Part shown: one piece after another, positions 13,408-29,252 of the stretch
Layout of the letters: every line of letters starts with the position of its first letter
Position numbering within the stretch: position 1 is the first letter of the stretch
Source: Micavibrio aeruginosavorus
Lineage (GTDB): Bacteria; Pseudomonadota; Alphaproteobacteria; Micavibrionales; Micavibrionaceae
Length of the DNA: 32,000 nt
Direction of reading: 5' to 3'
Assembly (NCBI RefSeq): GCF_051245535.1
Contig: NZ_CP195303.1
Span: 64,656-96,655, forward strand
Position numbers and translations under genes: made by a program
Notes under the pieces: model-generated
The model's input: only the letters and a program-made list of their open reading frames with translations
Told to the model about the DNA's origin: nothing
Database searches by the model: none

Positions 13408-13419
13408 GTGATGGATTCA

Positions 13420-14911
<1,492 letters not shown>

Positions 14912-15057
14912 GTGTTTGGCATAACCTTCATCGTAAGATGAAAGCCTCGCACTGCTGCCGGCGTATCTCTTCCTTCAGATAAGAACCACTTCATAGCGAC
15001 TGGGCTAGCCCTGGTTGTTGTGAATACCGAACGTGAGAGTTTGGTTTTTGCAAACGG

Positions 15058-15134
<77 letters not shown>

Positions 15135-15147
15135 TTTTTCAAAAGAT

Positions 15148-15223
15148 GGGCCCATAGCTCAGCTGGGAGAGCGCCTGATTTGCATTCAGGAGGTCAGGAG
15201 TTCGATCCTCCTTGGGTCCACCA
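15148..15223 (+). tRNA. tRNA-Ala (anticodon TGC)
   Basis: GGGCCCATAGCTCAGCTGGGAGAGCGCCTGATTTGCATTCAGGAGGTCAGGAGTTCGATCCTCCTTGGGTCCACCA. It has the G3:U70 Ala identity pair, and the CCA end is encoded. Confidence 0.95.
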
Positions 15224-15404
15224 TTTATCTCTCTCTTCCTTCCAATTTTCTCTCCAGTTTCTGTGTAAACGGAAATTGCAGTGAAGATTGAAAGATCTTC
15301 GGTTCTTTGACATCGTAAATAGGTATGACATCAATATCCAAAATGTCTAACAAAATGCTGAGTATATAAGCCAGCGTAGCGGACTTGTCCCTGCGCGTGG
15401 TTTG

Positions 15405-18149
<2,745 letters not shown>

Positions 18150-18282
18150 CTCCATGTCGTATGGTTTACTCCATCGATATGAAACATCACGCGCAGCGGC
18201 AAGCTCGTTGCGGTTGGCTTATAGGCCAGCGTTTTGAAAGACAAATGCGGATATTGATTGTTTAATACAGGCGGTTTTGGAT

Positions 18283-18400
18283 GACCTGGTGATTCTAGCG
18301 AGTGCGCAACACCCCATCCCATACCGAACTGGACCGTGAAAAGCCTCAGCGCCAATGGTACTTCGTCTTAAGACGCGGGAGAGTAGGTCGTTGCCAGGTC
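18283..18400 (+). rRNA. rrf: 5S ribosomal RNA
   Basis: GACCTGGTG...CCCATCCCATACCGAACTGGACCGTGAAA...AGCGCCAATGGTACTTCGTCTTAAGACGCGGGAGAGTAGGTCGTTGCCAGGTC is a typical alphaproteobacterial 5S sequence. Confidence 0.9.
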
Positions 18401-18465: not shown

Positions 18466-18489
18466 ACGCGCCCTTGGCGCGTTTTTTTG
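18466..18489 (+). terminator. rRNA operon rho-independent terminator
   Basis: ACGCGCC (18466-18472) pairs with GGCGCGT (18476-18482) around a CTT loop, followed by a run of 7 T. Confidence 0.75.
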
Positions 18490-18540
18490 TATCCAATTTC
18501 TCCCGTCTTTATAAAAACCCCATCACAAAGGCTTGTAAAA

Positions 18541-18894
18541 ATGAGTCTCTCAATCCCTGTTCCCTTCGCCACCATCGGCTTGCTGCTCGCCTCCAATATT
18601 TTCATGACATTCGCCTGGTATGGCCATTTGAAGTTTAAAACAACCCCGCTTCTGATCGTCATTCTGGTGAGCTGGGGTATAGCCTTCTTCGAATACTGCC
18701 TGCAGGTTCCGGCCAATCGCATGGGCCATTCCGTTTTCAATGCGGCTCAACTCAAAACCATTCAAGAATGCCTGACTCTATTGGTGTTTATGGGCTTCTC
18801 AATCTGGTATCTGAAAGAACCGATTCAGTGGAATCACCTTCTCGGTTTCGGCTTGATTGTGCTTGCGGCGTGGGTGATTTTTAAAAAATGGTGA
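18541..18894 (+). CDS. Small DMT-superfamily membrane protein (DUF486-like, ~117 aa)
   Basis: From ATG 18541: MSLSIPVPFATIGLLLASNIFMTFAWYGHLKF...WGIAFFEYCLQVPANRMGH...QLKTIQE...IVLAAWVIFKKW. It has four predicted TM helices, the pattern of the conserved DUF486/DMT family. The ORF opens at 18487. Confidence 0.7.
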   Translation: MSLSIPVPFATIGLLLASNIFMTFAWYGHLKFKTTPLLIVILVSWGIAFFEYCLQVPANRMGHSVFNAAQLKTIQECLTLLVFMGFSIWYLKEPIQWNHLLGFGLIVLAAWVIFKKW

Positions 18895-19038: not shown

Positions 19039-19115
<77 letters not shown>

Positions 19116-19146
19116 ATTTTCCCAATAAAATCAATGACTTAAGAAG

Positions 19147-19167
19147 AAGCCCCGCAAGGGGCTTTTC
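19147..19167 (+). terminator. Rho-independent terminator after tRNA-fMet
   Basis: AAGCCCC-GCAA-GGGGCTT hairpin followed by TTTC. Confidence 0.55.
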
Positions 19168-19199
19168 TGATTTTTGCTCCGTGGGGACCTGGTGGGGAA
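19168..19199 (+). repeat. Left copy of an imperfect inverted repeat (partner at 22401-22437)
   Basis: TGATTTTT-GCTCCGTGGGGACCTGGTGGGGAA compared with the reverse complement of 22401-22437, TGATTTTTAACCTGCTCCGTGGGGAACTGATGGGGTA. There is a 12-nt perfect core, 21/24 matches over the core block, and a shared TGATTTTT. Confidence 0.5.
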
Positions 19200-19367
19200 C
19201 TTGAAAAAAAGAAATGACAACAAACCGCCGCATATCACGACAATTTTTTACGATGATATTTTGCAGCTTGGTTTTATTGGACGCGATGCAATTTGATGCA
19301 TTTTTGTACTCAAAAATTGTCCAAATTTTCGTCTCTGAATCGATCAAAATCAGAAAAAGTGTCCCAA

Positions 19368-19382
19368 AACCTGAAGGTCGTA
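19368..19382 (+). repeat. 15-nt exact direct copy of an internal tRNA-fMet segment (possible att core remnant)
   Basis: AACCTGAAGGTCGTA at 19368-19382 is identical to tRNA positions 19076-19090 (anticodon-stem 3' side, variable loop, T-stem 5' side). The flanks do not match the tRNA. Confidence 0.55.
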
Positions 19383-19400
19383 TAGCGATTGATTGCAGCG

Positions 19401-20138
19401 ATGGTAGTTGATATCATTGGATACATGTCAAGATGCACAGCACCAACAAGAGGCCATCGCACAGCTAGCGCTGCGGCCGACTGCCCCGCATGTGGTGGCC
19501 GCTCTCGCGGCTACGGCGGTTATAGGTCGCACTCGTCTCCATCCTATTCGTCGCCCTACTCCTCCTCGGAGAGCAGCTGGGGAGGTCGGAGCAGTGGTGG
19601 TGGGTCAACGGGCGGTAGCGCAAAGCCACGGTGGTCGCGATCCGGTTCGTCCGTAGCGTATACGCCCACCGAGGTATTAGCGCTCACCCCAATCCGCAAC
19701 AGCGTCGAGAGCCTAGCGAAGCAGCCTGATCTTCGGGACGTCTTCCTATGCCATGCGTGGGATGACCGACAAGGGGCCGCTAAGGAGCTTCATGATCTTC
19801 TAGAATCAATTGGAGTCCGGGTCTGGTTCAGCGAGAAGGATGTTGGACTTGGCGTACCATTGCTCCGTGCCATCGATAAGGGCTTAGCAAACTCGAAAGT
19901 AGGAATTGTGCTGGTGACTCCTGCGCTACTGCGTCGCCTTCCAACAGAGGGAATTGCTGATAAGGAGCTTTCGGCACTCCTCGCTGGTGAGCGGCTTGTT
20001 CCCATCGTGCACAACACCACCTATGAAGCTCTCCGTGAAGAAAGCCCCCTGCTTGCCTCGCGAAGCGGACTTAGCACTGCAGAAAACACGATGGCACAGG
20101 TTGCGGCTAAGATCGCCGAGCTGGTCTCTGTAGGATAA
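19401..20138 (+). CDS. TIR-domain protein with a Cys-pair / Ser-Gly-Tyr-rich N-terminal region
   Basis: The C-terminal ~140 aa are DVFLCHAWDDRQGAAKELHDLLESIGVRVWFSEKDVGLGVPLLRAIDKGLANSKVGIVLVTPALLRRL...KELSALL...LVPIVHN. This matches the bacterial TIR_2 pattern ((F/L)xSHxxxD, VW(Y/F)(D/S)E, GxSLxxxIxxGLxxS, and the conserved Glu in xELxxL). The N-terminus has C..(14)..CPAC followed by GYGGYRSHSSPSYSSPYSSSESSWGGRSSGGGSTGG. Start is ambiguous: TTG 19389, ATG 19401 or ATG 19425. Confidence 0.8.
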   Translation: MVVDIIGYMSRCTAPTRGHRTASAAADCPACGGRSRGYGGYRSHSSPSYSSPYSSSESSWGGRSSGGGSTGGSAKPRWSRSGSSVAYTPTEVLALTPIRNSVESLAKQPDLRDVFLCHAWDDRQGAAKELHDLLESIGVRVWFSEKDVGLGVPLLRAIDKGLANSKVGIVLVTPALLRRLPTEGIADKELSALLAGERLVPIVHNTTYEALREESPLLASRSGLSTAENTMAQVAAKIAELVSVG

Positions 20139-20196
20139 AAAACGACATTCAGCGCAGAGGATTCAATAGAGCCTGATGGTAACTAATGATCAGTTT

Positions 20197-21015
20197 TTAA
20201 GCTCTTTCCTTGATTTCAAGGCCATATTTATTAGGTAAGCGCGCCGCCTCCTTAAGAACAATCTTTTTACCTGAGTTTTTCAGTAAGTCCGCGATCTGCT
20301 GTTTATATTCTTCAGGCATCAGGCATCCCAAAATAATCGACTTAAGAGAGCCCTCGGGAATCTCAAGTAGGCTGTTCTTCACAATTAGCATCTGATCTGC
20401 AGGTAATTTGGTCGTGTTTTCGAGAGCAATTAACCTGAATTCATCTTCATATGCCCAATGATTAGATTTTGTCGTAAGGATTTTTACGTTCGCTTCTGCG
20501 GAGTCGTCAGTTAATTGGAACGGTGGGTAGTCTTTGTTATATTCCACTTTAAGAGCCGCGCAAAAAACTGGATTTTTTACATCGAACTCTAAACAAAGAC
20601 CCGTATGTTTTGCGGCGTAATGCCCCCACATTAAAGCATTGTCATTCTTTGTGGTTAAGCAGCGCACTCGATATTGACTGCAAATGTCCTCAAATAAACC
20701 ATCTGAAAACTTCTTCATAAATCCTTTTAGCTTTTCGGGATCTTTATCTAGCTGAGAGATAGCATCTTCTATGTTTATTTGGCCGTTAGGTCGTGCCTTT
20801 TTATAGGCAGTTGTGTAATAGCTTATTACTGCTTTTCGTATTTCAGGATCATCTACATCAGAGAAAAAATGAGGTCGGCAGTCCCAAGGATCATTGAAAC
20901 CGACAGGATTAGATAGAAATATAAGGTTGCTTAAAACTGTTTGTTTTAAGTATTCGAATATGTAGGGTTGGTAACTATATAATGACCCTATTTTTAATTC
21001 TGCAGCAGTTTGCAT
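20197..21015 (-). CDS. DUF2971 family protein
   Basis: The N-terminal LYSY...L.Q.VLSNLIFLSNPVGFNDPWD, the central ALMWGHYAAKHTGLCLEFD and then KSNHWAYEDEFRLI are the three blocks I associate with DUF2971. The gene is AT-rich. Confidence 0.75.
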   Translation of the reverse strand: MQTAAELKIGSLYSYQPYIFEYLKQTVLSNLIFLSNPVGFNDPWDCRPHFFSDVDDPEIRKAVISYYTTAYKKARPNGQINIEDAISQLDKDPEKLKGFMKKFSDGLFEDICSQYRVRCLTTKNDNALMWGHYAAKHTGLCLEFDVKNPVFCAALKVEYNKDYPPFQLTDDSAEANVKILTTKSNHWAYEDEFRLIALENTTKLPADQMLIVKNSLLEIPEGSLKSIILGCLMPEEYKQQIADLLKNSGKKIVLKEAARLPNKYGLEIKERA

Positions 21016-21101
21016 TATTTAATCTTTTTATAAATTGGGGCGTAACCCAGCCATATTTAGTTTTAAGAAAGATTTTGAGGCATCAACTTTATCAACGCAA
21101 G

Positions 21102-21302
21102 CTATAGGCCTTCGCGCTTTTTATATGCTTCAACCTCTTCTTGGATTTGAAGCGTGAAAGTTTTAAGCGGATCAGTGGCGCGTTTAATTTCTTCTGGTGT
21201 TAGTCCATCGCTTGCCAGCTTTTTCTGTATGTCTGCAATCCGCTGGTTCTGTCCATCTAATCGATCCAAAGATATTTTGTATTCGGTACTATTTTTGATC
21301 AT
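21102..21302 (-). CDS. Small helical protein (66 aa), third gene of the TA operon
   Basis: Its ATG (21302-21300) overlaps the TGA (21301-21299) of the GNAT gene as ATGA. MIKNSTEYKISLDRLDGQNQRIADIQKKL... resembles the N-terminal helical leader seen in some HTH-type antitoxins, but there is no HTH. Confidence 0.5.
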   Translation of the reverse strand: MIKNSTEYKISLDRLDGQNQRIADIQKKLASDGLTPEEIKRATDPLKTFTLQIQEEVEAYKKREGL

Positions 21303-21802
21303 TTCAAGGCCTCACGCACACTAGCTAAAGGTAGGCAAAGTGTCATGGGCTGGATTGGCGACTCTAAGAAGCCGCGTGACAGATAAAATCTTTTTGCTTC
21401 GTCGGAAAGCGCGTGCACAAGCAAAGCTGCCACGCCAGCAATCTCACCGGCCTTTACACTGCGAAATACAGCGTCTTGCAAAAGCGCTTTGCCTAATCCT
21501 TGGTTTTGATAAGCCTTATCAATCGCCAGTCGTCCCATGATCATAACGGGGATCGGATTGGGCATATTGCGACCGAGCTTCTTGGGGGCTTCTTGTATTG
21601 CAACTGCGCCTGTCGATAGACAATAGTAGCCGACCACACGCTTGCCTTCGCATACTACATATGTTCTGGAAGCCGATGCTTTCTCATTTTTAAGCGCACG
21701 CTTTTGCAGCCACTCATCCAGTGAGGTGACACCAGAATTGAAAGACGCAAGATCATGTTCAGCCTCAATCGGAGCTGGAGCGGTTAGAGATTGAAGGCTC
21801 AT
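21299..21802 (-). CDS. GNAT-family acetyltransferase toxin (TacT/KacT/AtaT-like)
   Basis: HDLASFNSGVTSLDEWLQKRALKNE...RTYVV...VVGYYCLSTGAV...PNPIPVMIMGRLAIDKAYQNQGLGKALLQDA...ALLVHALSDEAKRFYLSRGF is the canonical pattern of DUF1778-associated GNAT toxins. It abuts the upstream antitoxin gene. Confidence 0.9.
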   Translation of the reverse strand: MSLQSLTAPAPIEAEHDLASFNSGVTSLDEWLQKRALKNEKASASRTYVVCEGKRVVGYYCLSTGAVAIQEAPKKLGRNMPNPIPVMIMGRLAIDKAYQNQGLGKALLQDAVFRSVKAGEIAGVAALLVHALSDEAKRFYLSRGFLESPIQPMTLCLPLASVREALK

Positions 21803-22083
21803 TATTTATCCCAGGGCGATTTCTCATTTAAAAAGCGACGCAGTCGATCATTCGATTCTGACGGTGCATCCAGCATAGCCTGAAATTTAGCAAAAGCATC
21901 AGCTTCAAGCGCAAAGAAAGTTTGATCAAGCAATACGTCTTCTGCCTTACTGCACGCAGCTTCCAACATAAAGTCGGAGCGGCTACGACCTTGGCTCTCT
22001 GCGGCCTGATCTATTAAATCTCGCTGCTTAGCTTTGGCTCTAATGTTAATAGAGACTGCTTCGGTTGTTTGTGCTTGTGACAT
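21802..22083 (-). CDS. DUF1778 (RHH) antitoxin (TacA/KacA-like)
   Basis: MSQAQTTEAVSINIRAKAKQRDLIDQAAESQGRSRSDFMLEAA...DQTFFALEADAFAKFQAMLD matches the typical DUF1778 sequence. An AGGAGA SD lies upstream of ATG 22083. The ORF extends to 22116. Confidence 0.9.
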   Translation of the reverse strand: MSQAQTTEAVSINIRAKAKQRDLIDQAAESQGRSRSDFMLEAACSKAEDVLLDQTFFALEADAFAKFQAMLDAPSESNDRLRRFLNEKSPWDK

Positions 22084-22118
22084 GATAAAATCTCCTTCTA
22101 CATATCCAATATACATTA

Positions 22119-22141
22119 TTGTATAGAAGATTTCTATACAA
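22119..22141. promoter_or_regulatory. Perfect palindromic operator candidate upstream of the TA operon
   Basis: TTGTATAGAA (22119-22128), GAT, TTCTATACAA (22132-22141): 10-bp perfect inverted arms ~36 nt upstream of the antitoxin start. This position is typical of RHH antitoxin autoregulation sites. Confidence 0.6.
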
Positions 22142-22400
22142 ATGTTAAATTTATATTTTTGTACAATTAAATCAGTGGCTTATATTCTTCTCATAGCCTG
22201 GTTGGTGATTTCCTACAAAATGTAGCTCAATGTTCCTGGTCGGAATTTTTCTAAGTGGGCATCGGATACAGAAAAACTGCGAGGGGCGGAGCCGCCCCCA
22301 GGGGGTGGATTGGTTTTTAAGAAGGTGGGTCAGGGGGGCTTCTGTTTCAGTGAGGGAATTTGACGTAAGGCACTAAATGGGGGCTGAATTTTTGAGCAAT

Positions 22401-22437
22401 TACCCCATCAGTTCCCCACGGAGCAGGTTAAAAATCA
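22401..22437 (-). repeat. Right copy of the imperfect inverted repeat (partner at 19168-19199)
   Basis: See 19168-19199. It lies ~110 nt upstream of the integrase start. Confidence 0.5.
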
Positions 22438-22489
22438 TATCATATTGTTATAAATAACAAAAAATAATTAAATCATCAGTATTGCAATC

Positions 22490-22519
22490 TGTTGTGCTCT
22501 GTTGTAGCGTGTTGTGATC
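22490..22519 (+). promoter_or_regulatory. Three helically phased TGTTGT direct repeats upstream of the integrase gene (possible arm-type / regulatory sites)
   Basis: TGTTGTGCTC-TGTTGTAGCG-TGTTGTGATC, with an exact 10-bp period, 27 nt upstream of the integrase ATG. Confidence 0.35.
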
Positions 22520-22545
22520 AACCAAAAACACACAGGGGCAGAGCT

Positions 22546-23643
22546 ATGGCTTCTATCGAACAGCGTGTCACCAAGGATGGCGTGACCACATACCGCGTTA
22601 AAGTAAAGCTGCGGGGGCATCCCACAGAAACGGCGACCTTTAAGAGCAAGACGCACGCAAAAAATTGGGGGCAGCAAATTGAGGCTGCAATTCGGGAAGG
22701 GCGGCACTTCAAAACCTCTAAAGCCAAAAAGCATACCCTGGCCGATGCGATTGATCGCTATCACAAAGAAGTACTGGTGCATAAGAAGAGCAATACCTTC
22801 AACCAGGCGCATTACCTGAAATACTGGCGGCAGGAGCTGGGCGCATACAGCATGTTCGATGTAACTTCTTCTTTGATCGTCGAGAAGCGCAATGCTCTTG
22901 TAGGGCAGAAAAACCGCTATGGGCGGGAAATCGGTGCAACAACGGCTAACCGCTATACTCAGGCGCTGGGGCATGTCTTCACCATTGCTATGAACGAATG
23001 GGAATGGGTCGAGACAAACCCTGTCCGTAAAGTTTCTAAGTACAAGGAATCCAGGGGGCGTGTGCGGTTCCTTGATGATGATGAGCGCCAGCGCCTGCTG
23101 CAAGCATGCCGTGAAAGCGATAACCCTCACCTGTATAAAATCGTTGTTCTGGCTCTCAGCACTGGAGCCAGAAAGATGGAAGTGATTGGTCTAAAATGGC
23201 AGGACATTGATTTGGAACGCAAGCTGATCGTGCTGCATGAAACTAAGAACGGGGAGCGGCGTGTTCTGCCGTTGCAAGGCTATGCGCTTTCGCTTATCCA
23301 GGAGCACGCAAAGGCTAAGACGCTAGGTTGCGAGTATGTCTTCCCCAGCAGCAAAGTGATCCGTGATAAAACTGGCGGCAAGGCGCTATATCAGCCTATC
23401 GATATTCGTACCGCCTGGGAAAACGCTCTGACCAAAGCGAAGATTGAGGATTTCAGATTCCATGACCTACGCCACTCTGCGGCTTCATACCTTGCAATGA
23501 ATGGTGCAAGCCTTGCTGAGATTGCCGAAGTCCTGGGACATAAAACACTTCAGATGGTCAAGCGCTATGCGCACTTGTCTGAGGCACACACCTCCACCGT
23601 CGTTGCCAGCATGAATGAGAAGATTTTTGGGAGTGTGCAGTGA
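22546..23643 (+). CDS. int: Tyrosine site-specific integrase
   Basis: The C-terminal catalytic region is ...LALSTGARKMEV...FHDLRHSAASYLAMNGASLAEIAEVLGHKTLQMVKRYAHL (R, HxxR, H and Y residues). The N-terminal arm-type domain is MASIEQRVTKDGVTTYRVKVKLRG. A GGGGCAGAG SD-like motif lies upstream of ATG 22546; the ORF opens at 22492. Confidence 0.9.
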   Translation: MASIEQRVTKDGVTTYRVKVKLRGHPTETATFKSKTHAKNWGQQIEAAIREGRHFKTSKAKKHTLADAIDRYHKEVLVHKKSNTFNQAHYLKYWRQELGAYSMFDVTSSLIVEKRNALVGQKNRYGREIGATTANRYTQALGHVFTIAMNEWEWVETNPVRKVSKYKESRGRVRFLDDDERQRLLQACRESDNPHLYKIVVLALSTGARKMEVIGLKWQDIDLERKLIVLHETKNGERRVLPLQGYALSLIQEHAKAKTLGCEYVFPSSKVIRDKTGGKALYQPIDIRTAWENALTKAKIEDFRFHDLRHSAASYLAMNGASLAEIAEVLGHKTLQMVKRYAHLSEAHTSTVVASMNEKIFGSVQ

Positions 23644-24287
23644 AAACCAAAGAAGAGCATGCGGAGATGATGGCTGATAATTTTAATACCCTCATGAGCC
23701 AATACGAAATGCACGAAATTGACGCTACTGAGACCGTCTTACTTGGGTTGCAGGTATTAAAGAGGTACCTAGAAAGTAGCCACTATATGTACCAAACCCC
23801 ATATTTTAAAATCGTGAGTTTATGCGAAGCTGCTGAAAAAACTGGTAGGAAGTCACGATATAAAACGCTAGATAAATATTTTCTTCAAGGTTGTTTGATT
23901 GAAGGTATCAATAAGTTTTCCGCAAGAAGAATCAAAAGCGAAGCTATTTATAATTTTATAAATGACTACTTGGGAATAGATCGATCAGAATCTGTAAGAT
24001 CCCTCAAGATATTTAAACAATGGTACTATAGTCCAGGTGAAAATCAAGAAGCAGCAGAATTTTCTGAAGAGTGTTGTCATTGGATTGTCGAATTTCTAGC
24101 TTCTCTTAAAAGTAGGGAGGTGCCAAATCAAAAAGAATATCCTGAGGCGCACAACGGATTCATAGATTTAAAAGAATCATGTGAAAAAAATTACGAAGAT
24201 AATAAAAAAATGGCATATTCAGCTCGCCGCATGCGGCCATTTGAGAATGATCTTGAACCGACATTTTCCTATCAAAAGGCAGATTAA
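23640..24287 (+). CDS. Hypothetical protein (215 aa), AT-rich orphan
   Basis: ORF-track entry. GTG 23640 overlaps the integrase TGA (GTGA); alternative ATGs are at 23667/23670. No family recognised. Confidence 0.5.
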   Translation: MKTKEEHAEMMADNFNTLMSQYEMHEIDATETVLLGLQVLKRYLESSHYMYQTPYFKIVSLCEAAEKTGRKSRYKTLDKYFLQGCLIEGINKFSARRIKSEAIYNFINDYLGIDRSESVRSLKIFKQWYYSPGENQEAAEFSEECCHWIVEFLASLKSREVPNQKEYPEAHNGFIDLKESCEKNYEDNKKMAYSARRMRPFENDLEPTFSYQKAD

Positions 24288-24391
24288 GAGAATGGTGAAG
24301 AAAAATTTCACCAGATTTTCTGGGTAGCCTTTGCTTTTCTTACATCACAGCCGGCAATTAAAGGCCGCATTTTGTAAGAAAGGACAAGCAA

Positions 24392-24649
24392 ATGGTAATT
24401 AATAATCTAAAAGGTTTTATATCTGACGGTGATGCAACGCCGGACCAGGATAAAAATTTTTCTTTCCTAACTGTCAAACAGTTCTCAAAGAAACATCCTG
24501 CCTTTCCAGAGGGCGGCATTCGCCACCTCATATTTTACGAAAAAACAAATGGATTCAATCGGGTTATTCGTCGTGTTGGGCGAAGAGTTCTGCTTGATGA
24601 AAATGCCTTTTTTCGCTGGGTCGAAGAAAAGAACACCATTCCTCAGTAA
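24392..24649 (+). CDS. Excisionase/AlpA-like helix-turn-helix DNA-binding protein
   Basis: FLTVKQFSKKHPAFPEGGIRHLIFYEKTNGFNRVIRRVGRRVLLDENAFFRWVEE follows the pattern of MerR-superfamily HTH_17/excisionase proteins ((L/M)T(V/I)xE(A/F)...S...(I/V)xxxxxxG.(L/F)P..(K/R)(I/V)GRR(V/I)L(F/I)....(L/F)..(W/F)(L/I)). A GAAAGGA SD lies upstream. Confidence 0.6.
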   Translation: MVINNLKGFISDGDATPDQDKNFSFLTVKQFSKKHPAFPEGGIRHLIFYEKTNGFNRVIRRVGRRVLLDENAFFRWVEEKNTIPQ

Positions 24650-24699
24650 TCCCCTTAAAAGAAAAGGCCGCTTTGCAGAGCGGCCAGAAGGATAATGCT

Positions 24700-24966
24700 A
24701 TGCGCTATTTTAACAAACTGGATCCCCTAGAGCAAGACGCAGCTACAGATGCGTTGGCAATGCTTAAAAGCAAATACGATATAGGCGAGCAAGAGTATGC
24801 GGCTCATCTGGAAATTTTTGCTCAGGTTTTGCTTCAGATGAGGCGTATACCGCCAGAGTGCGGCCCCGGTACGATGGAGCTTGATTACTCATGTCATGGA
24901 TCGCGCTATTTCATGGAATGGGCTGTCTATGAAAGAACCAAGCAGTTTAGGCACGGAAGAGCCTAA
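24700..24966 (+). CDS. Hypothetical protein (~88 aa)
   Basis: ORF 24673-24966. ATG 24700 is preceded by a GAAGGA SD. The stop lies 1 nt before the next gene's ATG. No family recognised. Confidence 0.4.
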   Translation: MRYFNKLDPLEQDAATDALAMLKSKYDIGEQEYAAHLEIFAQVLLQMRRIPPECGPGTMELDYSCHGSRYFMEWAVYERTKQFRHGRA

Positions 24967-24967
24967 A

Positions 24968-25267
24968 ATGAGCTTCTTCCAAATCGTTAACCAGGCCGCG
25001 CTATGGGCACTGCCCGACATACTCAATAGATGGCTTCCTGGCGGAAAACGCCAGGGAGATGAGTATGTGGTCAAAAATCCCATGCGGGCTGACGACCGAC
25101 CAGGTTCTTTCTCAATAAATCTCAGAACGGGGAAGTGGGCCGATTTTGCAACAGGAGATAGGGGCGGCGACATTATAAGCCTAGCCGCTTATCTATCCGG
25201 GAAAAGCCAAATCGAAGCTGCTCGATCCCTCGCCAAAATGTTAGGAGTTTCAGATGTCAAACGATAA
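24968..25267 (+). CDS. Primase N-terminal (zinc-ribbon-like, Cys-less) domain protein
   Basis: From ATG 24968: ...WLPGGKRQGDEYVVKNPMRADDRPGSFSINLRTGKWADFATGDRGGDIISLAAYL. This resembles the N-terminal module of P4-alpha/plasmid primases (NP.R.D..(A/P)GSF.(I/V)N..TG.W.DFA.G..GGD(V/I)I(S/D)L). It overlaps the next gene by 14 nt. Confidence 0.6.
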   Translation: MSFFQIVNQAALWALPDILNRWLPGGKRQGDEYVVKNPMRADDRPGSFSINLRTGKWADFATGDRGGDIISLAAYLSGKSQIEAARSLAKMLGVSDVKR

Positions 25268-27419
25268 AGGCATGTTCTCGCCAATCCAAAAAAACGATTC
25301 AATCAAGCAAGGTAAAGACGAAGGAGTTGCAATTCCTATTCCGGAGAATGCAGGTAGCGCAGGTGCTCACCCCACGCTCGGCATACCGAAGAAGGGGTGG
25401 GTATATAAGATGGCTGATGGCCAAGCTCTTCTCATTATAGCTCGCTTTGAAAGGCAAGATGGTAGCAAAGAAGATCGCCCCCTAACATTTAGACGTTACC
25501 TTAACAGTGGCGCGCGTTGGGCCTGGAAATCGATACCAGAGCCGCGCATCCTTTATAATCTTGATAAACTATCCACACTCAGCGATAAGCCAATTTTAGT
25601 ATGTGAGGGCGAAAAAGCAGCCGAAGCAGCTGAAAGGCTATTCCCTGAATATGTAGTTACTACAAGCACCAATGGGGCTAGATCGCCGCACAAGACCGAT
25701 TGGTCGCCTGTGAAGGGGCGAGAGGTGATGATTTGGCCAGATAACGATCAAAGCGGTTTTGCTTATGCCGATAGTGTTGCACAGCTTTGTCTGAAGGCTG
25801 GCGCACTGCTGGTGCGTGTTGTGCAAGTGCCTGCTGATTTTAAAGAGGGATGGGATTTAGCAGATCCGTTACCTGACGGAATTAATTTTGAAAATCTGAA
25901 GGTATTGATCAGTGAAGCACGTCAAATAATTGGTGCCTATGAGGAGGCAACCCATGCGGCATATTCATTGTCACCTGATTCTCAGCCACATGAAATCGAG
26001 AAAGCGCTTAAGTTGATCGTTTCACTCTCAGAAATTGAGCAGGAGCGAATAAAAAAAATTATCAGCAAAAACGCCAAAATGCCACTTAGCGTACAGAATA
26101 GGGCGCTAAAAAACTTTAGGCAGACAGTTGCCGACGATGATGATGCTGGAATGGATCATCTTGATCTTGCTCGTTCTCTTATAGATGAAGTAGGGAGAGA
26201 TAATATCTTGTCAACAGCGGCCCATCTTTGGGTATGGCGGAATAATGGCCTCTGGGAGGCACTGCCTGATCTCGATATTAAAAAAACCATCCAGGCCCAT
26301 CTCAATGAGATGGGGCAGAAAGTGACACGCGGCCTTGTCGATGCAGTTTTATCGGTTTTGAAGAACGAAGTGTTTGCCGAGCAGCATCAGTGGGATTTGA
26401 ATCCTGATATTATAAATGTACAAAACGGAGATCTTATATTCTCAGGCCAGTGTTGGATTTTGCAACCTCATAAGCGTGAAAACTTTAGAACCACACAAAT
26501 CCCGCATCCTTACATTCATAATGCAGAATGCCCAAGGTTTCTAAAATATTTGGATGAGATTTTTTTAAGCGATATTGATGGTTTTTTGAAAAAGCAACTA
26601 GTGCTCGAAATGATCGGCTATACGCTTACAAACACAACTAAATATGAGAAATTTGTGATTTTGATAGGATTGGGAGCTAACGGAAAAAGCGTGCTCCTTG
26701 AGATTATAGCAGCGCTTGTCGGACTTAGGAATGTTTCCGCTGTTCAGCCTGCAGAGTTTTCTGATCGATTTAAGAGGGCCCATATGCACCGCAGGCTGGC
26801 TAATCTTGTTACAGAAATAGCTCAAGGCGGCACAATCGCTGATGCAGAGTTAAAGGCTATTTCATCTGGGGAGTTGATCACCGCAGATCATAAGAATCAG
26901 CCGCCTTTCGACTTTAAGCCTTATTGCACCTGCTGGTTCGGAACGAACCACATGCCGCGCACCAAAGACTTTTCAGATGCGCTGTATCGTCGCGCCATAG
27001 TCGTGACATTTAATCGAAAGTTTGAAGGGAAGAGCGTAGACGTAAACTTAAAGAAAACACTTCTTACTGAATTACCGGGGATTATGAGAGCGTCCCTGGA
27101 TGCCTATGCGGGTGTTCTTAAGCGTGGCTCATTCACTGAGCCGCCAAGCTCAATACAAGCGAAGGAAACGTGGCGTAAAGAGGAGGATCATGTATCGCAA
27201 TTTGTTGATGAGTGTTGCGATTTTTTGCCAAATGCAAAAGAATCTTCCAAAGCATTGTACGCAGCCTATCGAAATTGGGCAGAGGAGCAGGGTGTGCGCC
27301 ACATCCTAGATCATAACAGCCTTACATCGCGTCTTGTGACCAAGGGACTTAAGAGACATAGGTTGTCAAAGGGTGTTCGAGCCATAAGCGGTCTGTGCTT
27401 GAGGGCGCAGAGGGAGTGA
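25254..27419 (+). CDS. Toprim-domain primase fused to a D5/P4-family SF3 helicase
   Basis: The Toprim region is ILVCEGEKAAEAA...VMIWPDNDQSG. The D5_N-like middle region is followed by Walker A ILIGLGANGKSVLLEII and the conserved TNHMPRTKDFSDALYRRAIVVTF block of phage/plasmid P4-family primases. Confidence 0.9.
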   Translation: MSNDKGMFSPIQKNDSIKQGKDEGVAIPIPENAGSAGAHPTLGIPKKGWVYKMADGQALLIIARFERQDGSKEDRPLTFRRYLNSGARWAWKSIPEPRILYNLDKLSTLSDKPILVCEGEKAAEAAERLFPEYVVTTSTNGARSPHKTDWSPVKGREVMIWPDNDQSGFAYADSVAQLCLKAGALLVRVVQVPADFKEGWDLADPLPDGINFENLKVLISEARQIIGAYEEATHAAYSLSPDSQPHEIEKALKLIVSLSEIEQERIKKIISKNAKMPLSVQNRALKNFRQTVADDDDAGMDHLDLARSLIDEVGRDNILSTAAHLWVWRNNGLWEALPDLDIKKTIQAHLNEMGQKVTRGLVDAVLSVLKNEVFAEQHQWDLNPDIINVQNGDLIFSGQCWILQPHKRENFRTTQIPHPYIHNAECPRFLKYLDEIFLSDIDGFLKKQLVLEMIGYTLTNTTKYEKFVILIGLGANGKSVLLEIIAALVGLRNVSAVQPAEFSDRFKRAHMHRRLANLVTEIAQGGTIADAELKAISSGELITADHKNQPPFDFKPYCTCWFGTNHMPRTKDFSDALYRRAIVVTFNRKFEGKSVDVNLKKTLLTELPGIMRASLDAYAGVLKRGSFTEPPSSIQAKETWRKEEDHVSQFVDECCDFLPNAKESSKALYAAYRNWAEEQGVRHILDHNSLTSRLVTKGLKRHRLSKGVRAISGLCLRAQRE

Positions 27420-27561
27420 CTTGGGTGACTCACAAAACATATCTCTAAAATCTCCACATCATAGTGATCTTAGAGATAACATTATTTGTATAATCAGCAC
27501 ATTATCTGGTGATTGAATCTGTGTCACCTGTGTCACTCAGGACTTTTTGAGCTTAATAAAG

Positions 27562-28506
27562 TTAGGCTGACGCAGCATCTAACAGCATCTCCCGCTGGTA
27601 TGGTTTTCGTATCAACTTATGTATTATTATGTCTTTATCGTTCGGGCGAACACGAGCCTCTATTTTCAAGGCTTCCCAATGATCAAAATTTGACCCTACC
27701 AAGTGCCCTTCATATTTTTTCCAAAGTGTGTCCCATCCCCTGCTTGGAATCGCAATCATGCGCCGCTCAGTAAATTCATTCGTGGGTGGCATGGTTGGCT
27801 CCCAATCATCGTATTGGCAGTCAAATGGGTATCTCCAAAAAAGGTCTTGCCCCCCTTCCTTGTTTTTTATGTGTTCAACCATATCGGAAACTTTTAGAAA
27901 TCGGCCTGCCAATCTGCGTCTATTGTTTTTTGAATCATTGTAAGACAGCTCCCACCAAGTTATTTGTGTAGGCTCCTCTGGCTCCTCGTTTTTGAACTCT
28001 GGATACTTTGTGAATAAAGCCTCAAATGTTTGCTTTGATTCTAAGTAAACTTCACCGGATATATCGCCCTGGTCACGGAGGGTTTTCAGTGTCCCATACA
28101 GCTGACTAGGTCTTTTTTCAAACAGCGAATATATTATGCTGTATTCGCTTGTCGTATCATCGGTAAGCCAGTCTCCTTCTTCATCGGCATCCACGACTAA
28201 GAAATGGCATATTATTAGGGCCGCAGCCTCATACTTGTTAAGACCGTCTGCATAAGCGTGATTCACAATTTTTAGAGAGTAAGGCTGAAATTTTTCATCT
28301 TGAAAATTGTAGAAATTAAACCAATTGCTGATCTCTTGATAGCGGCTGGCTTCTGCCGCATATGACCTTCTTAAACAAAAAATAGCGGGCTTCCAGCCAA
28401 ATAACAGAGACTGGATGCTGGCAGCTTTTCTGCTGATAAAAAGATCCCGAACAGAATCTCTAAAATGATTTTTCTTAAAATTTTTAAACATAAGCTCATC
28501 TCCCAT
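27562..28506 (-). CDS. Hypothetical protein (314 aa), AT-rich orphan cargo gene
   Basis: Long uninterrupted ORF with plausible amino-acid composition. The start may instead be the second ATG (28491), which is preceded by GGGAGATGAG. No family recognised. Confidence 0.55.
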   Translation of the reverse strand: MGDELMFKNFKKNHFRDSVRDLFISRKAASIQSLLFGWKPAIFCLRRSYAAEASRYQEISNWFNFYNFQDEKFQPYSLKIVNHAYADGLNKYEAAALIICHFLVVDADEEGDWLTDDTTSEYSIIYSLFEKRPSQLYGTLKTLRDQGDISGEVYLESKQTFEALFTKYPEFKNEEPEEPTQITWWELSYNDSKNNRRRLAGRFLKVSDMVEHIKNKEGGQDLFWRYPFDCQYDDWEPTMPPTNEFTERRMIAIPSRGWDTLWKKYEGHLVGSNFDHWEALKIEARVRPNDKDIIIHKLIRKPYQREMLLDAASA

Positions 28507-29063
28507 TTGCGGAAACGGCTTTCCAGATGTCTCTGGAAAGCCGGGGAGTGATTACCGTCCGAGAACGGCCAGCGTATTCACGCTAGGCGCTATTTTATTC
28601 CGCTGCTCCCCGACACAAGGTCGAGAGGCAGCATCATTGGTGACGGCCAGATGCTGTTTGGCCGTCTCGGAGGGGTAATCAGCCCCATCGAGCAGGATTT
28701 ACTGCTCGATGCTGAAAACATTAAACAAATGATCGAAATTTCACAATGCAAATAAGGCGACCTTGTACGGGACAAGATCACTTGTGAGTCCTATCAAGGG
28801 TTTGCGTGCCTTTTGATCGGGTCGATCTTTTTGCATACAAGGTCAAATCCTTTGAAAGCCAGATGTACGCCTCAAAAAAGCGAATCTTTACAAGGCGAAG
28901 GAAAACTTTTGTAGTAGGCGAGACTGCTCTATAGGGCGAAGTTCTTGAAGGTTGAATCCCAGGTGAATCTAAAACCAACGCGCCAGTATTCGGCTTGCTT
29001 CCCTGTCCATTTTCAATTATTTTCTCAATTTATAAATCTAAATGACGAATCAATGGTTTGCCT

Positions 29064-29252
29064 ATGGCTGATGAGATTATGACCATTCGGGAGGTCGCCT
29101 CCTATTTGAAGCTCGCGGAAAAGAGCCTTTACCGCTATGCGCTCGAAGGTAAAGTCCCTGGCTTTCGTGTCGGGGCAGCATGGCGTTTCCGCAAAAGCGA
29201 TATTGATGCTTGGATTAGCAAAAACATCGCTGAACAAAGAAAGGCTGGCTGA
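29064..29252 (+). CDS. Helix-turn-helix (excisionase-family HTH_17) DNA-binding protein
   Basis: MADEIMTIREVASYLKLAEKSLYRYALEGKVPGFRVGAAWRFRKSDIDAWI is a textbook HTH_17 pattern. Its stop TGA (29250-29252) overlaps the hsdR ATG (29252-29254). The ORF opens at TTG 29058. Confidence 0.75.
   Translation: MADEIMTIREVASYLKLAEKSLYRYALEGKVPGFRVGAAWRFRKSDIDAWISKNIAEQRKAG

What the first reader, a model, noticed from the sequence alone, without database searches (positions are those of the whole stretch)
19401..20138. TIR-domain protein with a Cys-pair and Ser/Gly/Tyr-rich N-terminus, GC-rich inside an AT-rich island
The C-terminal half is a recognisable bacterial TIR domain and retains the conserved Glu (KELSAL) that NAD+-cleaving TIRs use. 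The N-terminal ~90 aa fit none of the sensor or effector modules I know from Thoeris ThsB, TIR-STING, TIR-SAVED, TIR-NLR or TIR-pAgo. It has a C-x14-CPAC half zinc-ribbon followed by a prion-like tract (GYGGYRSHSSPSYSSPYSSSESSWGGRSSGGGSTGG). No ThsA (SIR2/Macro-SLOG), CD-NTase, Argonaute or STING partner is present in the window. The gene is clearly more GC-rich than everything around it. It begins within ~20-40 nt (depending on which start codon is used) after a 15-nt copy of a tRNA-fMet fragment. It could be a stand-alone or unconventional TIR immune gene in which low-complexity-driven self-assembly gates NADase activity.
Basis: partly seen in the sequence, partly recalled or inferred. Interest (0 to 1): 0.75.

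Follow-up and report, generated by a model that had tools for sequence, protein, structure and literature searches.

The report
Stand-alone, ultra-conserved mobile TIR gene
This is an intact single-gene TIR (NAD-cleaving type) immune-like protein with a tiny zinc-knuckle-like tip and a floppy Ser/Gly/Tyr tail. It belongs to an uncharacterised family that hops between bacterial phyla on plasmids and islands without any fixed partner gene, yet stays about as conserved as a housekeeping protein.

Summary
Window 19425-20138(+) encodes a 237-aa protein; the start is 19425, not 19401. It has four parts:
- an invariant C4/H11/C20/C23 motif;
- a disordered Ser/Gly/Tyr/Arg tract of variable length;
- a folded linker;
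- a TIR domain closest to AbTir/BtpA/PdTIR.

Glu181 (KELSAL) is invariant and aligns with AbTir's catalytic E208. The cyclase-determining aromatic position is Ile/Val, so I predict plain NAD+ hydrolysis rather than signal synthesis.

The family is not new to databases. A PADLOC "ThsB" model covers its full length (E 5e-123), and it occurs in more than 8000 protein clusters, 213 plasmids and 110 of 5426 E. coli genomes. No partner is conserved: there is no ThsA in the window or in 80 genomes from 7 phyla, and 142 immediate neighbours fall into 121 Pfam families.

Amino-acid identity stays near 72% (TIR 79%) while synonymous sites are saturated, so purifying selection is very strong despite cross-phylum transfer. 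In the window and 11 other loci a conserved promoter abuts the ATG, which suggests a leaderless mRNA.

Best reading: an autonomous single-protein TIR abortive-infection NADase, cargo at the tRNA-fMet edge of an integrase island. Gating by the low-complexity tract is untested. Single-protein TIR defences are already known in E. coli.

The parts
19425..20138 (+). TIR protein gene (237 aa plus stop); corrected start
   Evidence: ORF. It is identical to the NCBI 237-aa Micavibrio aeruginosavorus protein (P0001). The MxRCTAP start is conserved in 80 homologues.
19389..19417 (+). Promoter-like site TTGATT-17 nt-TATCAT (TG-extended), ending 7 nt before the ATG; a leaderless mRNA is inferred
   Evidence: Consensus scan (on its own at chance level). 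The same block (consensus CTAGCGCTTGAGAGCGGCGATGGTAnCCGGTATCATCGGCCAC-ATG) lies upstream of the gene in 11 other loci, drawn from Alphaproteobacteria, Gemmatimonadota, Acidobacteriota, Verrucomicrobiota and one unclassified Proteobacteria MAG. None of them has a Shine-Dalgarno sequence.
19425..19499 (+). N-terminal residues 1-25: C4-x6-H11-x8-C20-x2-C23 motif, putative zinc knuckle
   Evidence: C4, H11, C20 and C23 are 80/80 invariant, and T5, A6 and G10 are invariant too. Two divergent members have CPVH in place of CPAC, a Cys-to-His swap. No Pfam or PDB match; Zn_ribbon_19 scores E 0.023, below threshold. AF2 pLDDT 47-57.
19500..19610 (+). Residues 26-62: Ser/Gly/Tyr/Arg-rich low-complexity tract
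   Evidence: pLDDT 34-45. Across 74 homologues the length is 25-50 residues (median 41), with S 35%, G 23%, Y 13%, R 10.5%. Mean pairwise identity is only 0.485. There is no DNA tandem repeat.
19611..19724 (+). Residues 63-100: folded linker (PRWS...YTP motif plus helix 81-97) packing on the TIR domain
   Evidence: pLDDT 73-92 and helix 81-97. W70, S71, Y79 and T80 are invariant.
19725..20135 (+). TIR domain (residues about 101-237)
   Evidence: Pfam TIR_2. Foldseek matches BtpA/TcpB 4c7m/4lqc, PdTIR 3h16, BtTir 7uxr and AbTir 7uwg at E 6e-11 to 9e-8, with target-normalised TM 0.76-0.87.
19965..19967 (+). Codon GAG = Glu181, the catalytic-Glu equivalent (K180-E181-L182)
   Evidence: 80/80 invariant. 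It aligns with AbTir E208-L209 and the TcpB 'RELDGL' Glu in MAFFT. It lies in predicted helix alphaC, residues 179-186. Pairwise phmmer alignments are shifted here and place AbTir E208 on I177.
19365..19382 (+). 17/18 copy of tRNA-fMet positions 19073-19090; a junction or att-like remnant just left of the conserved TIR promoter
   Evidence: The copy is also present, more decayed, in the related contig L113. Homology to the family's promoter block starts at about 19383.
19039..19115 (+). tRNA-Met(CAT), read as initiator tRNA-fMet; anchor of the island
   Evidence: ARAGORN and Rfam. A terminator-like hairpin follows at 19145-19176.

Best explanation
The gene encodes an autonomous, single-protein TIR NAD+ hydrolase of the abortive-infection type. 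It is carried as cargo at the tRNA-fMet-proximal edge of an integrase/primase island.

Shown:
- The ORF is intact.
- The TIR fold is closest to AbTir/BtpA/PdTIR.
- Glu181 is invariant at the catalytic position.
- The position that must be aromatic in ADPR-cyclising TIRs is Ile or Val.
- The N-terminus carries an invariant C/H/C/C motif, followed by a disordered S/G/Y/R tract and a folded linker.
- No partner gene is conserved.
- The genomic contexts are mobile elements and defence genes.
- Purifying selection is very strong, with cross-phylum transfer.
- The gene has its own conserved promoter abutting the ATG.

Inferred:
- The protein is kept inactive as a monomer or dimer.
- A trigger acts on the conserved N-terminal module. 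The trigger could be a conserved phage structural protein, such as the portal proteins that trigger E. coli single-protein TIR systems, or a conserved host or physico-chemical cue.
- The trigger drives TIR-TIR higher-order assembly, as in AbTir filaments.
- Assembly completes the composite active site.
- NAD+ is then hydrolysed to ADPR and nicotinamide, arresting the infected cell.
- The S/G/Y tract acts as a tether and/or an assembly-promoting element.
- The promoter, probable leaderless mRNA and one ORF together form an expression cassette of about 0.77 kb that works in any host. This would explain the family's spread.
For: - TIR identity.
- Catalytic Glu: E181 and K180 are 80/80 invariant and align to AbTir E208. 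E208A is inactive in AbTir (paper 10.1101/2022.05.07.491051).
- Non-cyclase prediction: position 177 (E minus 4) is I in 61 and V in 19 sequences, never aromatic. All cyclase TIRs carry an aromatic residue there, and mutating it shifts products to ADPR.
- Stand-alone status: the largest neighbour cluster other than the gene itself covers 10 of 81 loci. The 142 immediate neighbours fall into 121 Pfam families, none of them SIR2, SLOG or Macro. No ThsA was found by phmmer within +-10 kb of 80 loci. No conserved small ORF lies within +-500 nt.
- Defence and mobile context, elsewhere: neighbours include M78 peptidase/HTH (RmrA/CapP-like), ThsB, IetS, a TIR plus SLOG-cluster-3 pair, type I Thoeris and a SMODS cluster. 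The family is on 213 plasmids, in E. coli CP4-like islands, at IMG/VR contig ends, and within 120-330 bp of a tRNA 3' end in 7 of 81 loci.
- Defence and mobile context, in the window: DUF2971/PDC-S31, TacAT, an integrase, a primase-helicase and a type I REase-like gene.
- Selection: mean amino-acid identity is 0.716 (TIR 0.79), against identity of 0.39 at 4-fold sites. Gene GC ranges 0.38-0.68 and tracks the host.
- Precedent: the single-protein E. coli TIR systems TIR-V, VI and IX defend against phages, need the TIR active site, and are triggered by portal or tail-fibre proteins (PMC11350192).
- Promoter.
Against: - No activity, toxicity or phage data exist for this family here. I could not map the E. 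coli orthologue (WP_001389195.1) to the tested or active clusters of PMC11350192, because its supplement is not held. It may have been among the 20 of 32 inactive candidates.
- The WxxxE tryptophan is absent. BB-loop Ser176 of AbTir, whose S176A mutant is nearly inactive, is Pro145 here. Catalysis is therefore not guaranteed.
- Pairwise HMMER alignments do not place E181 on E208.
- Immune sensors usually evolve fast, so extreme conservation is atypical for a phage-protein sensor.
- Only a minority of immediate neighbours are known defence genes.
- AF2 gives no confident structure or contacts for residues 1-62.
Confidence: 0.5

Rival explanations
1. It is an orphan or auxiliary ThsB: a Thoeris-type sensor that makes a signalling nucleotide for an effector encoded elsewhere in the genome, or next door in some hosts.
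For: PADLOC model PDLC00424 'ThsB1|ThsB' matches the full length at E 4.6e-123. PADLOC built such models from clusters of at least 5 proteins drawn from the systems reported by Doron et al. 2018. In two Planctomycetia genomes the gene lies 200 bp from a ThsB_TIR plus SIR2_2/STALD ThsA pair. 5 of 142 immediate neighbours are ThsB_TIR proteins. Thoeris TIRs can be expressed alone and still make signal.
Against: No ThsA or other recurrent effector is found in the window or within +-10 kb of 80 loci. In the Planctomycetia loci the gene is convergent with the Thoeris operon, not part of it. Pfam ThsB_TIR does not hit; only TIR_2 does. The fold is nearest AbTir/BtpA. The aromatic residue found in all cyclase TIRs is absent. 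Yirmiya et al. excluded stand-alone TIRs from Thoeris.
Confidence: 0.12
2. It is a selfish or competitive cargo gene of mobile elements rather than an anti-phage gene. Possible roles are plasmid or island maintenance, exclusion of rival elements, or metabolic manipulation through NAD+ turnover.
For: The family sits on 213 plasmids, 102 of them conjugative. In a Klebsiella plasmid it is flanked by two ISNCY transposases next to TacAT. It occurs at island and prophage edges. It carries its own promoter. Conservation is extreme for an immune gene. Most immediate neighbours are not known defence genes.
Against: No antitoxin-like partner or conserved small ORF is present, so a classical addiction module is unlikely. 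Recurrent neighbours, where there are any, are defence-type. Single-protein TIRs in E. coli are proven anti-phage.
Confidence: 0.15
3. It is a catalytically silent TIR acting as a scaffold or regulator, or a Tcp-like host-interference effector as BtpA/TcpC were first described.
For: The closest solved relatives are BtpA/TcpB and PdTIR. The W of WxxxE and the BB-loop Ser of AbTir are replaced. The BB loop carries an invariant-type Pro, as in signalling adaptor TIRs.
Against: K180-E181-L182 is 80/80 invariant. The hosts are mostly free-living soil and aquatic bacteria from 7 phyla, including Planctomycetota, Acidobacteriota and Paenibacillus, and no secretion signal or conserved partner was noted. 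A virulence role is therefore implausible. BtpA-type TIRs are themselves NADases (from my own knowledge of Essuman et al. 2018 and the paper read; not tested here).
Confidence: 0.08

Closest known systems
AbTir / BtpA(TcpB) / PdTIR / BtTir (bacterial 'Tcp'-type TIR NADases)
   Same: They are the best sequence and structure matches: E 1e-15, 26-31% identity, target-normalised TM 0.76-0.87. The catalytic Glu is conserved. By analogy with AbTir filaments, activity probably needs TIR self-association.
   Different: Those proteins have an N-terminal coiled coil. This one has a C/H/C/C motif plus a disordered S/G/Y/R tract. The W204-equivalent residue is Ile/Val, so 2'cADPR production is not expected. 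There is a 4-residue insertion before the Glu and a 5-residue deletion after it.
[quoted passage not shown] 2024, PMC11350192)
   Same: Each is one short TIR protein cloned with its native promoter. They give anti-phage, abortive-type protection that requires the TIR active site. The E. coli orthologue of this family is present in 110 of 5426 complete genomes. [quoted passage not shown]
   Different: Identity with any of the three could not be checked because the accessions are in a supplement that is not held. That paper describes no N-terminal motif or cross-phylum conservation, and it excluded these three systems from its phylogenetic analysis.
Thoeris ThsB (types I to XI)
   Same: It is a TIR protein found in defence islands and named ThsB by a PADLOC model. 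It sometimes lies beside thsA/thsB.
   Different: There is no cognate effector and no Pfam ThsB_TIR match. The cyclase-associated aromatic residue is absent. ThsB families are diverse (my knowledge), whereas this one is about 72% identical across phyla.
SARM1 and plant TIR-only proteins (from my own knowledge; for SARM1 only the fold match is a tool result, for plant TIR-only proteins nothing here is)
   Same: These are autonomous TIR NADases whose activity rises on oligomerisation or phase transition. The local motif around the Glu (x-x-[DH]-K-E-[LI]-x-x-A-L) and an insertion before alphaC resemble SARM1. SARM1 is a weaker Foldseek hit at E 2e-5.
   Different: There are no ARM/SAM domains. 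The bacterial cargo gene has a different N-terminus. The resemblance is by analogy only.

Membership tests
TIR domain superfamily (Pfam TIR_2, PF13676) | Profile match above the curated threshold | tested here: met
   53.6 bits against a cut-off of 28, E 4e-14.
TIR domain superfamily (Pfam TIR_2, PF13676) | Flavodoxin-like TIR fold | tested here: met
   The AF2 model has residues 63-237 at pLDDT 70-95. Foldseek probability is 1.00 to 21 chains of bacterial TIR structures, rmsd mostly 2.1-3.6 A.
Enzymatic (NADase) TIRs | Conserved catalytic glutamate in alphaC | tested here: met
   E181 is 80/80 invariant and aligns with AbTir E208 in MAFFT. Caveat: pairwise phmmer alignments are shifted by 4 residues, and no coordinates were available for a 3D check.
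Enzymatic (NADase) TIRs | Measured NAD+ cleavage | not testable with these tools
   Needs biochemistry.
ADPR-cyclase / signal-producing TIRs | Aromatic residue at the AbTir W204 position (E minus 4) | tested here: not met
   Position 177 is I (61) or V (19). The rule comes from paper 10.1101/2022.05.07.491051.
Thoeris (ThsB + effector) | TIR protein matching a ThsB model | tested here: inconclusive
   PADLOC PDLC00424 matches the full length at E 4.6e-123. Pfam ThsB_TIR PF08937 gives no hit, and NCBIfam Thoeris models score far below their cut-offs.
Thoeris (ThsB + effector) | Adjacent cognate effector gene (ThsA SIR2-SLOG, Macro-TM or other Ths effectors) in an operon | tested here: not met
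   None in the window. None among 142 immediate neighbours. No ThsA within +-10 kb of 80 loci. The only case seen is two Planctomycetia loci, where the gene is convergent with the Thoeris operon.
Tcp-type CC-TIR proteins (AbTir/BtpA/PdTIR) | N-terminal coiled-coil domain | tested here: not met
   Residues 1-62 are low-confidence and non-helical, and consist of low-complexity S/G/Y/R sequence.
Tcp-type CC-TIR proteins (AbTir/BtpA/PdTIR) | WxxxE motif | tested here: not met
   The motif here is I/V-A-D-K-E.
Rosmer / CapH-CapP-regulated modules | Adjacent M78 (ImmA/IrrE) peptidase with or without an HTH | tested here: not met
   Absent from the window. Present near the gene in only about 9-10 of 81 loci.
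Single-protein TIR anti-phage systems (TIR-V/VI/IX) | One TIR-only protein that is sufficient for defence | not testable with these tools
   The architecture fits: it is stand-alone and has its own promoter. The phenotype and sequence identity to those systems could not be checked.

The most novel reading that the evidence does not exclude
The family is a self-contained sensor-effector. A Zn (or redox-sensitive thiol) knuckle at the extreme N-terminus reads a cue shared by all bacteria. The FUS/CTD-like [S/G]Y[S/G]-SPSYS tract then drives condensation or amyloid-like clustering of the TIR domains, switching on NAD+ hydrolysis. This would be a bacterial counterpart of SARM1 phase-transition activation, packaged with a leaderless promoter as a universal plug-and-play immune cassette. 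The universality of the cue would explain housekeeping-level conservation in a mobile immune gene.
Probability: 0.15. Interest if true: 0.8.

Novelty: new variant of a known kind. Interest (0 to 1): 0.55.

Why it matters
Stand-alone TIR proteins were deliberately set aside in the latest systematic survey of bacterial TIR immunity. Only a few E. coli examples have been tested.

This family is abundant: more than 8000 clusters at 90% identity, at least 379 species genomes, 213 plasmids including 124 from Klebsiella, and 2% of complete E. coli genomes. It crosses at least 7 phyla.

It is under selection as strong as for core proteins, which is the opposite of the usual arms-race pattern. Working out what its invariant N-terminal motif senses could reveal a trigger shared by very different bacteria and phages. 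A native E. coli orthologue makes this directly testable.

Tried and rejected
1. Conserved partner gene. All-vs-all ORF clustering of +-10 kb around 80 homologues, Pfam and PADLOC on 142 immediate neighbours, and phmmer with a real ThsA found none.
2. Hidden small antitoxin. Six-frame pieces of at least 25 aa in the +-500 nt flanks gave only lineage-local matches.
3. DUF2971 neighbour (20197-21015, PADLOC PDC-S31) as the partner. It has no homologue next to the TIR gene elsewhere, and the related contig L113 has different cargo at that position.
4. N-terminal module fused to other effectors. Only 212 hits were found among 1.84 billion representatives. These are mostly fragments of the same family. 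Four long proteins join the N-terminus to non-TIR sequence: TamB (P0187), a beta-propeller (P0202), an alpha/beta-hydrolase (P0184) and an unannotated C-terminus (P0193). They look like mis-assemblies or gene-call fusions.
5. Known domain for the N-terminus. Nothing reached significance in Pfam or the PDB.
6. Phage origin. The family is absent from the phage genome collection, which holds only distant TIRs at 29-32% identity. There are 27 loci in IMG/VR, several at or near contig ends.
7. tRNA-fragment repeat as a general signature of the cassette. It is not seen in six other tRNA-adjacent loci. It is shared only with the related contig L113.
8. DNA tandem repeat underlying the low-complexity tract. 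None found.
9. Recent transfer as the sole cause of conservation. Rejected, because 4-fold sites are near saturation and gene GC follows the host.
Full report
**1. What is at the locus**

- The window carries an rRNA operon at 13419-18399 (16S, tRNA-Ile, tRNA-Ala, 23S, 5S).
- After it come a DMT_6 gene (18487-18894) and tRNA-Met(CAT) at 19039-19115. By its sequence this is the initiator tRNA-fMet.
- A terminator-like hairpin follows the tRNA at 19145-19176.
- GC then drops from 0.55-0.65 to 0.37-0.51.
- The low-GC segment is a mobile island. It contains:
  - the TIR gene;
  - a convergent DUF2971 gene (20197-21015, PADLOC candidate PDC-S31, E 6e-53);
  - TacT/TacA (21299-22116);
  - a tyrosine integrase (about 22546-23643);
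  - a Toprim/D5_N/DUF5906/Pox_D5 primase-helicase (25254-27419);
  - a mad1-like HTH (29064-29249);
  - a type I restriction-enzyme-like ORF running off the window.

**2. Checking the observation**

- The ORF is real, and Pfam TIR_2 hits it at E 4e-14.
- The gene is 0.583 GC against 0.472 in its flanks.
- The tRNA-fragment copy is 17/18 identical, at 19365-19382 against 19073-19090, with none expected by chance.
- Three details need correcting.
  - The start is ATG 19425. The NCBI protein is 237 aa, and 79 of 80 homologues begin MxRCTAP at an ATG.
  - The motif is C4-x6-H11-x8-C20-x2-C23, with all four residues invariant in 80 genomes. In two divergent members C23 is replaced by His, which is what one would expect of a metal ligand.
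  - The architecture is not unknown to databases. PADLOC model PDLC00424 ('ThsB1|ThsB') matches residues 9-244 to profile positions 1-234 of 234 at E 4.6e-123.

**3. The protein**

- AlphaFold2 with a 39-sequence alignment gives residues 1-62 at low confidence (pLDDT 34-57). Residues 63-237 are folded: a helix at 81-97 packs on a TIR domain, and helix alphaC spans 179-186, DKELSALL.
- Foldseek places the fold nearest BtpA/TcpB, PdTIR, BtTir and AbTir (E 6e-11 to 9e-8, target-normalised TM up to 0.87). SARM1 and plant TIRs come well behind. Sequence searches agree.
- The position of the catalytic Glu is ambiguous in pairwise HMMER alignments, which put AbTir E208 on I177.
- A MAFFT alignment with AbTir, TcpB and a Klebsiella phage TIR aligns E181-L182 with AbTir E208-L209. 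It needs a 4-residue insertion before the Glu and a 5-residue deletion after it.
- E181 and K180 are 80/80 invariant. The alternative Glu, E175, is 76/80.
- Four residues before the Glu, where AbTir has W204, the family has Ile (61) or Val (19).
- Manik et al. report that every cyclase TIR has an aromatic residue there, and that mutating it shifts the product to ADPR. I therefore predict a plain NAD+ hydrolase rather than a maker of cyclic-ADPR signals. This is an inference.
- The BB-loop Ser176 of AbTir is Pro145 here, so activity is not guaranteed.
- The low-complexity tract is 25-50 residues long (median 41), with S 35%, G 23%, Y 13%, R 10.5%. It has no DNA tandem repeat.
- Neither the tract nor the first 25 residues match any Pfam family or PDB chain.

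**4. The family**

- More than 8000 clusters match. The top 120 are 73-100% identical over the full length (89% at most apart from the window's own NCBI record). Those that carry a name come from Planctomycetota, Verrucomicrobiota, Acidobacteriota and Alphaproteobacteria.
- In one genome per species, at least 379 loci encode it. The best 80 come from Alpha-, Beta- and Gammaproteobacteria, Bacteroidota, Bacillota, Verrucomicrobiota, Planctomycetota, Gemmatimonadota and Acidobacteriota, at 63-79% identity over residues 1-236.
- It lies on 213 plasmids, including 124 from Klebsiella as well as the Bacillus cereus group, rhizobia and Planctomycetes.
- It is in 110 of 5426 complete E. coli genomes, within CP4-like islands.
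- It is absent from the phage genome collection. It occurs in 27 IMG/VR contigs, several times at or near contig ends.
- The N-terminal module is essentially exclusive to this family. Only 212 hits were found among 1.84 billion representatives, mostly fragments. Four apparent fusions to non-TIR sequence look chimeric.

**5. Selection and transfer**

| Region | Mean pairwise amino-acid identity (80 genes) |
|---|---|
| Whole protein | 0.716 |
| TIR domain | 0.790 |
| Residues 1-25 | 0.750 |
| Folded linker | 0.603 |
| Low-complexity tract | 0.485 |

- Identity at 4-fold degenerate sites of identical residues is 0.39, close to saturation.
- Gene GC ranges from 0.38 to 0.68 and follows the host.
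- Conservation therefore reflects strong purifying selection over long divergence, not only recent spread.
- Taxonomy barely structures the family. Within-group identity is 0.734 and between-group identity 0.710. 30 of 80 sequences have their nearest relative in another phylum or class; for example, a Gemmatimonadales copy is 94% identical to an alphaproteobacterial one.

**6. Partners**

- All-vs-all clustering of ORFs within +-10 kb shows no conserved neighbour. The largest cluster other than the gene itself is an M78 peptidase, in 10 of 81 loci.
- The 142 immediate neighbours fall into 121 Pfam families. The top ones are Peptidase_M78 (6), ThsB_TIR (5), HTH_3 (5) and HTH_31 (5). None is SIR2, SLOG or Macro.
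- PADLOC gives RmrA/CapP-like (6), ThsB (5) and IetS (3).
- No conserved small ORF lies in the flanks.
- No ThsA homologue lies within +-10 kb of the 80 loci.
- Recurrent local contexts exist, but each is lineage-restricted:
  - M78 peptidase/HTH plus DUF2188 upstream;
  - a TIR-like plus SLOG-cluster-3 pair;
  - an S24/SMODS/unknown/TIR/Metallophos cluster in Acidobacteriota;
  - two ISNCY transposases flanking the gene in a Klebsiella plasmid, with TacAT next door.
- In two Planctomycetia genomes the gene is convergent with a genuine type I Thoeris locus (ThsB_TIR plus SIR2_2/STALD), 200 bp away. This probably explains the PADLOC label, since PADLOC built its models from proteins of the systems reported by Doron et al..
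- A tRNA gene lies within 120-330 bp of the gene, with its 3' end adjacent, in 7 of 81 loci.

**7. A promoter that travels with the gene**

- The window has TTGATT-17 nt-TATCAT, TG-extended, at 19389-19417, followed by 7 nt and then the ATG.
- Taken alone this match is at chance level. However, the same block of about 45-55 nt lies upstream of the gene in 11 other loci from at least four major lineages, and none of them has a Shine-Dalgarno sequence.
- The spacing implies transcription starting at or next to the A of the ATG, that is, a leaderless mRNA. This is an inference.
- 50 of 80 loci instead have a Shine-Dalgarno sequence, with their own subfamily-conserved leaders.
- Conservation stops at the stop codon. 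In the promoter-type loci, the transferred unit is therefore promoter plus ORF, about 0.77 kb.
- In the window, homology to this block starts at about 19383, directly after the tRNA-fragment copy.

**8. The local island**

- A metagenomic contig from a close relative (L113; TIR 89% identical, integrase 91%) has the same order: tRNA-fMet 3' end, terminator, spacer, a more decayed repeat, then TIR.
- DNA homology covers window 19075-20125 and 22403-23644, plus a 64-nt block in the TacA-integrase intergenic region (22244-22307).
- The genes between TIR and the integrase differ. The window has DUF2971 plus TacAT; L113 has two unknown genes with no PADLOC hit.
- The TIR gene is thus a stable element at the tRNA-proximal edge, next to a variable cargo slot.
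- The repeat is best read as a decayed att-type junction. It is not a general feature of the family.

**9. Comparison with known systems**

- Yirmiya et al. (2025 preprint) removed stand-alone TIRs from their Thoeris survey, alongside TIRs discarded as likely NAD+-depleting effectors.
- Wang et al. (2024) showed that E. coli single-protein TIR systems (TIR-V, VI, IX) protect against phages. Protection requires the TIR active site, and the triggers are portal or tail-fibre proteins.
- The E. coli orthologue of this family should have been within their sampling frame. I could not map it because the accession table is not held.
- The kind, single-protein TIR defence, is therefore known. What is not described, as far as I could find, is this family's invariant C/H/C/C plus S/G/Y N-terminus, its cross-phylum conservation and its portable promoter.

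**10. Verdict**

Stand-alone status and a retained catalytic Glu hold. Gating by the low-complexity tract is untested.
- Best explanation (confidence 0.5): an autonomous abortive-infection NAD+ hydrolase, activated by assembly after the N-terminal module senses a conserved cue.
- Novelty: a new variant of a known kind.
- Interest: 0.55.

Noticed in passing
window 19389-19424; L001, L003, L012, L015, L025, L028, L029, L035, L057, L060, L068 (about 55 nt upstream of each TIR start): A promoter block, TTGAGA-17 nt-(TG)nTATCAT-7 nt-ATG, is conserved at the DNA level upstream of the TIR gene across at least four major lineages. None of these loci has a Shine-Dalgarno sequence, so the mRNA is probably leaderless. 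Other subfamilies carry different conserved leaders that do contain a Shine-Dalgarno sequence.
   Followed up: partly
window 20139-22402, compared with L113:1056-2788: There is a variable cargo slot between the TIR gene and the integrase. The window carries DUF2971 (PDC-S31) plus TacT/TacA. The related contig carries two unknown genes with no PADLOC hit. The flanks (tRNA to TIR, and the integrase) are 83-87% identical.
   Followed up: partly
window 20197-21015 (-): A 272-aa DUF2971 protein matches the PADLOC candidate single-gene system PDC-S31 over its full length (E 6e-53). It is convergent with the TIR gene, 58 nt away. It is not linked to the TIR family in other genomes.
   Followed up: partly
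window 21299-22116 (-); L081:3551-4287; L025:12382-12975: A TacT (GNAT) / TacA (DUF1778) toxin-antitoxin pair lies about 1.2 kb from the TIR gene here. The same pair sits next to the TIR gene on Klebsiella plasmid pA708-2, and a GNAT homologue lies near it in L025. This may be coincidence within accessory regions.
   Followed up: no
window 22546-29249: The island backbone looks like a P4-type satellite or integrative mobilisable element. It has a tyrosine integrase, an unknown 215-aa gene, a Toprim/D5_N/DUF5906/Pox_D5 primase-helicase (25254-27419), an unknown 314-aa gene (27562-28506, minus strand) and an AlpA/mad1-like HTH (29064-29249, PADLOC mad1 E 7e-9).
   Followed up: no
window 29252-32000 (+): A large ORF running off the window matches type I restriction endonuclease models (PADLOC REase_I, E 8e-51) and follows the mad1-like gene. 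It is probably another defence system on the same island (type I R-M or MADS-like).
   Followed up: no
L114/L115:6001-12708: Two Planctomycetia genomes have different left flanks but share TIR(+), then on the minus strand ThsB_TIR, ThsA (SIR2_2/STALD), SLFN_AlbA_2 and ResIII/RE_endonuc. This is a defence block in which this TIR sits 200 bp from a type I Thoeris locus.
   Followed up: partly
L116-L118 and L019 (about 2.5 kb upstream to 2 kb downstream of the TIR gene): In Acidobacteriota the TIR gene sits in a same-strand cluster: an S24 LexA-like protein, a SMODS-like 333-aa protein (faint Pfam hit), an unknown 281-aa protein, TIR (25-nt gap), then a Metallophos 619-aa protein. This may be a lineage-specific multigene system that has recruited this TIR.
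   Followed up: no
P0251 (236 aa): This divergent family member keeps the N-terminal C/H/C/C motif and the linker but has lost FLCHAWDD and both Glu residues (RNAIHTLL in place of DKELSALL). It is likely a catalytically dead paralogue.
   Followed up: no
L081:4498-8316 (Klebsiella plasmid pA708-2): The TIR gene is bracketed by two ISNCY-family transposase genes in the same orientation, a composite-transposon-like arrangement. Klebsiella accounts for 124 of the 213 plasmid hits.
   Followed up: no
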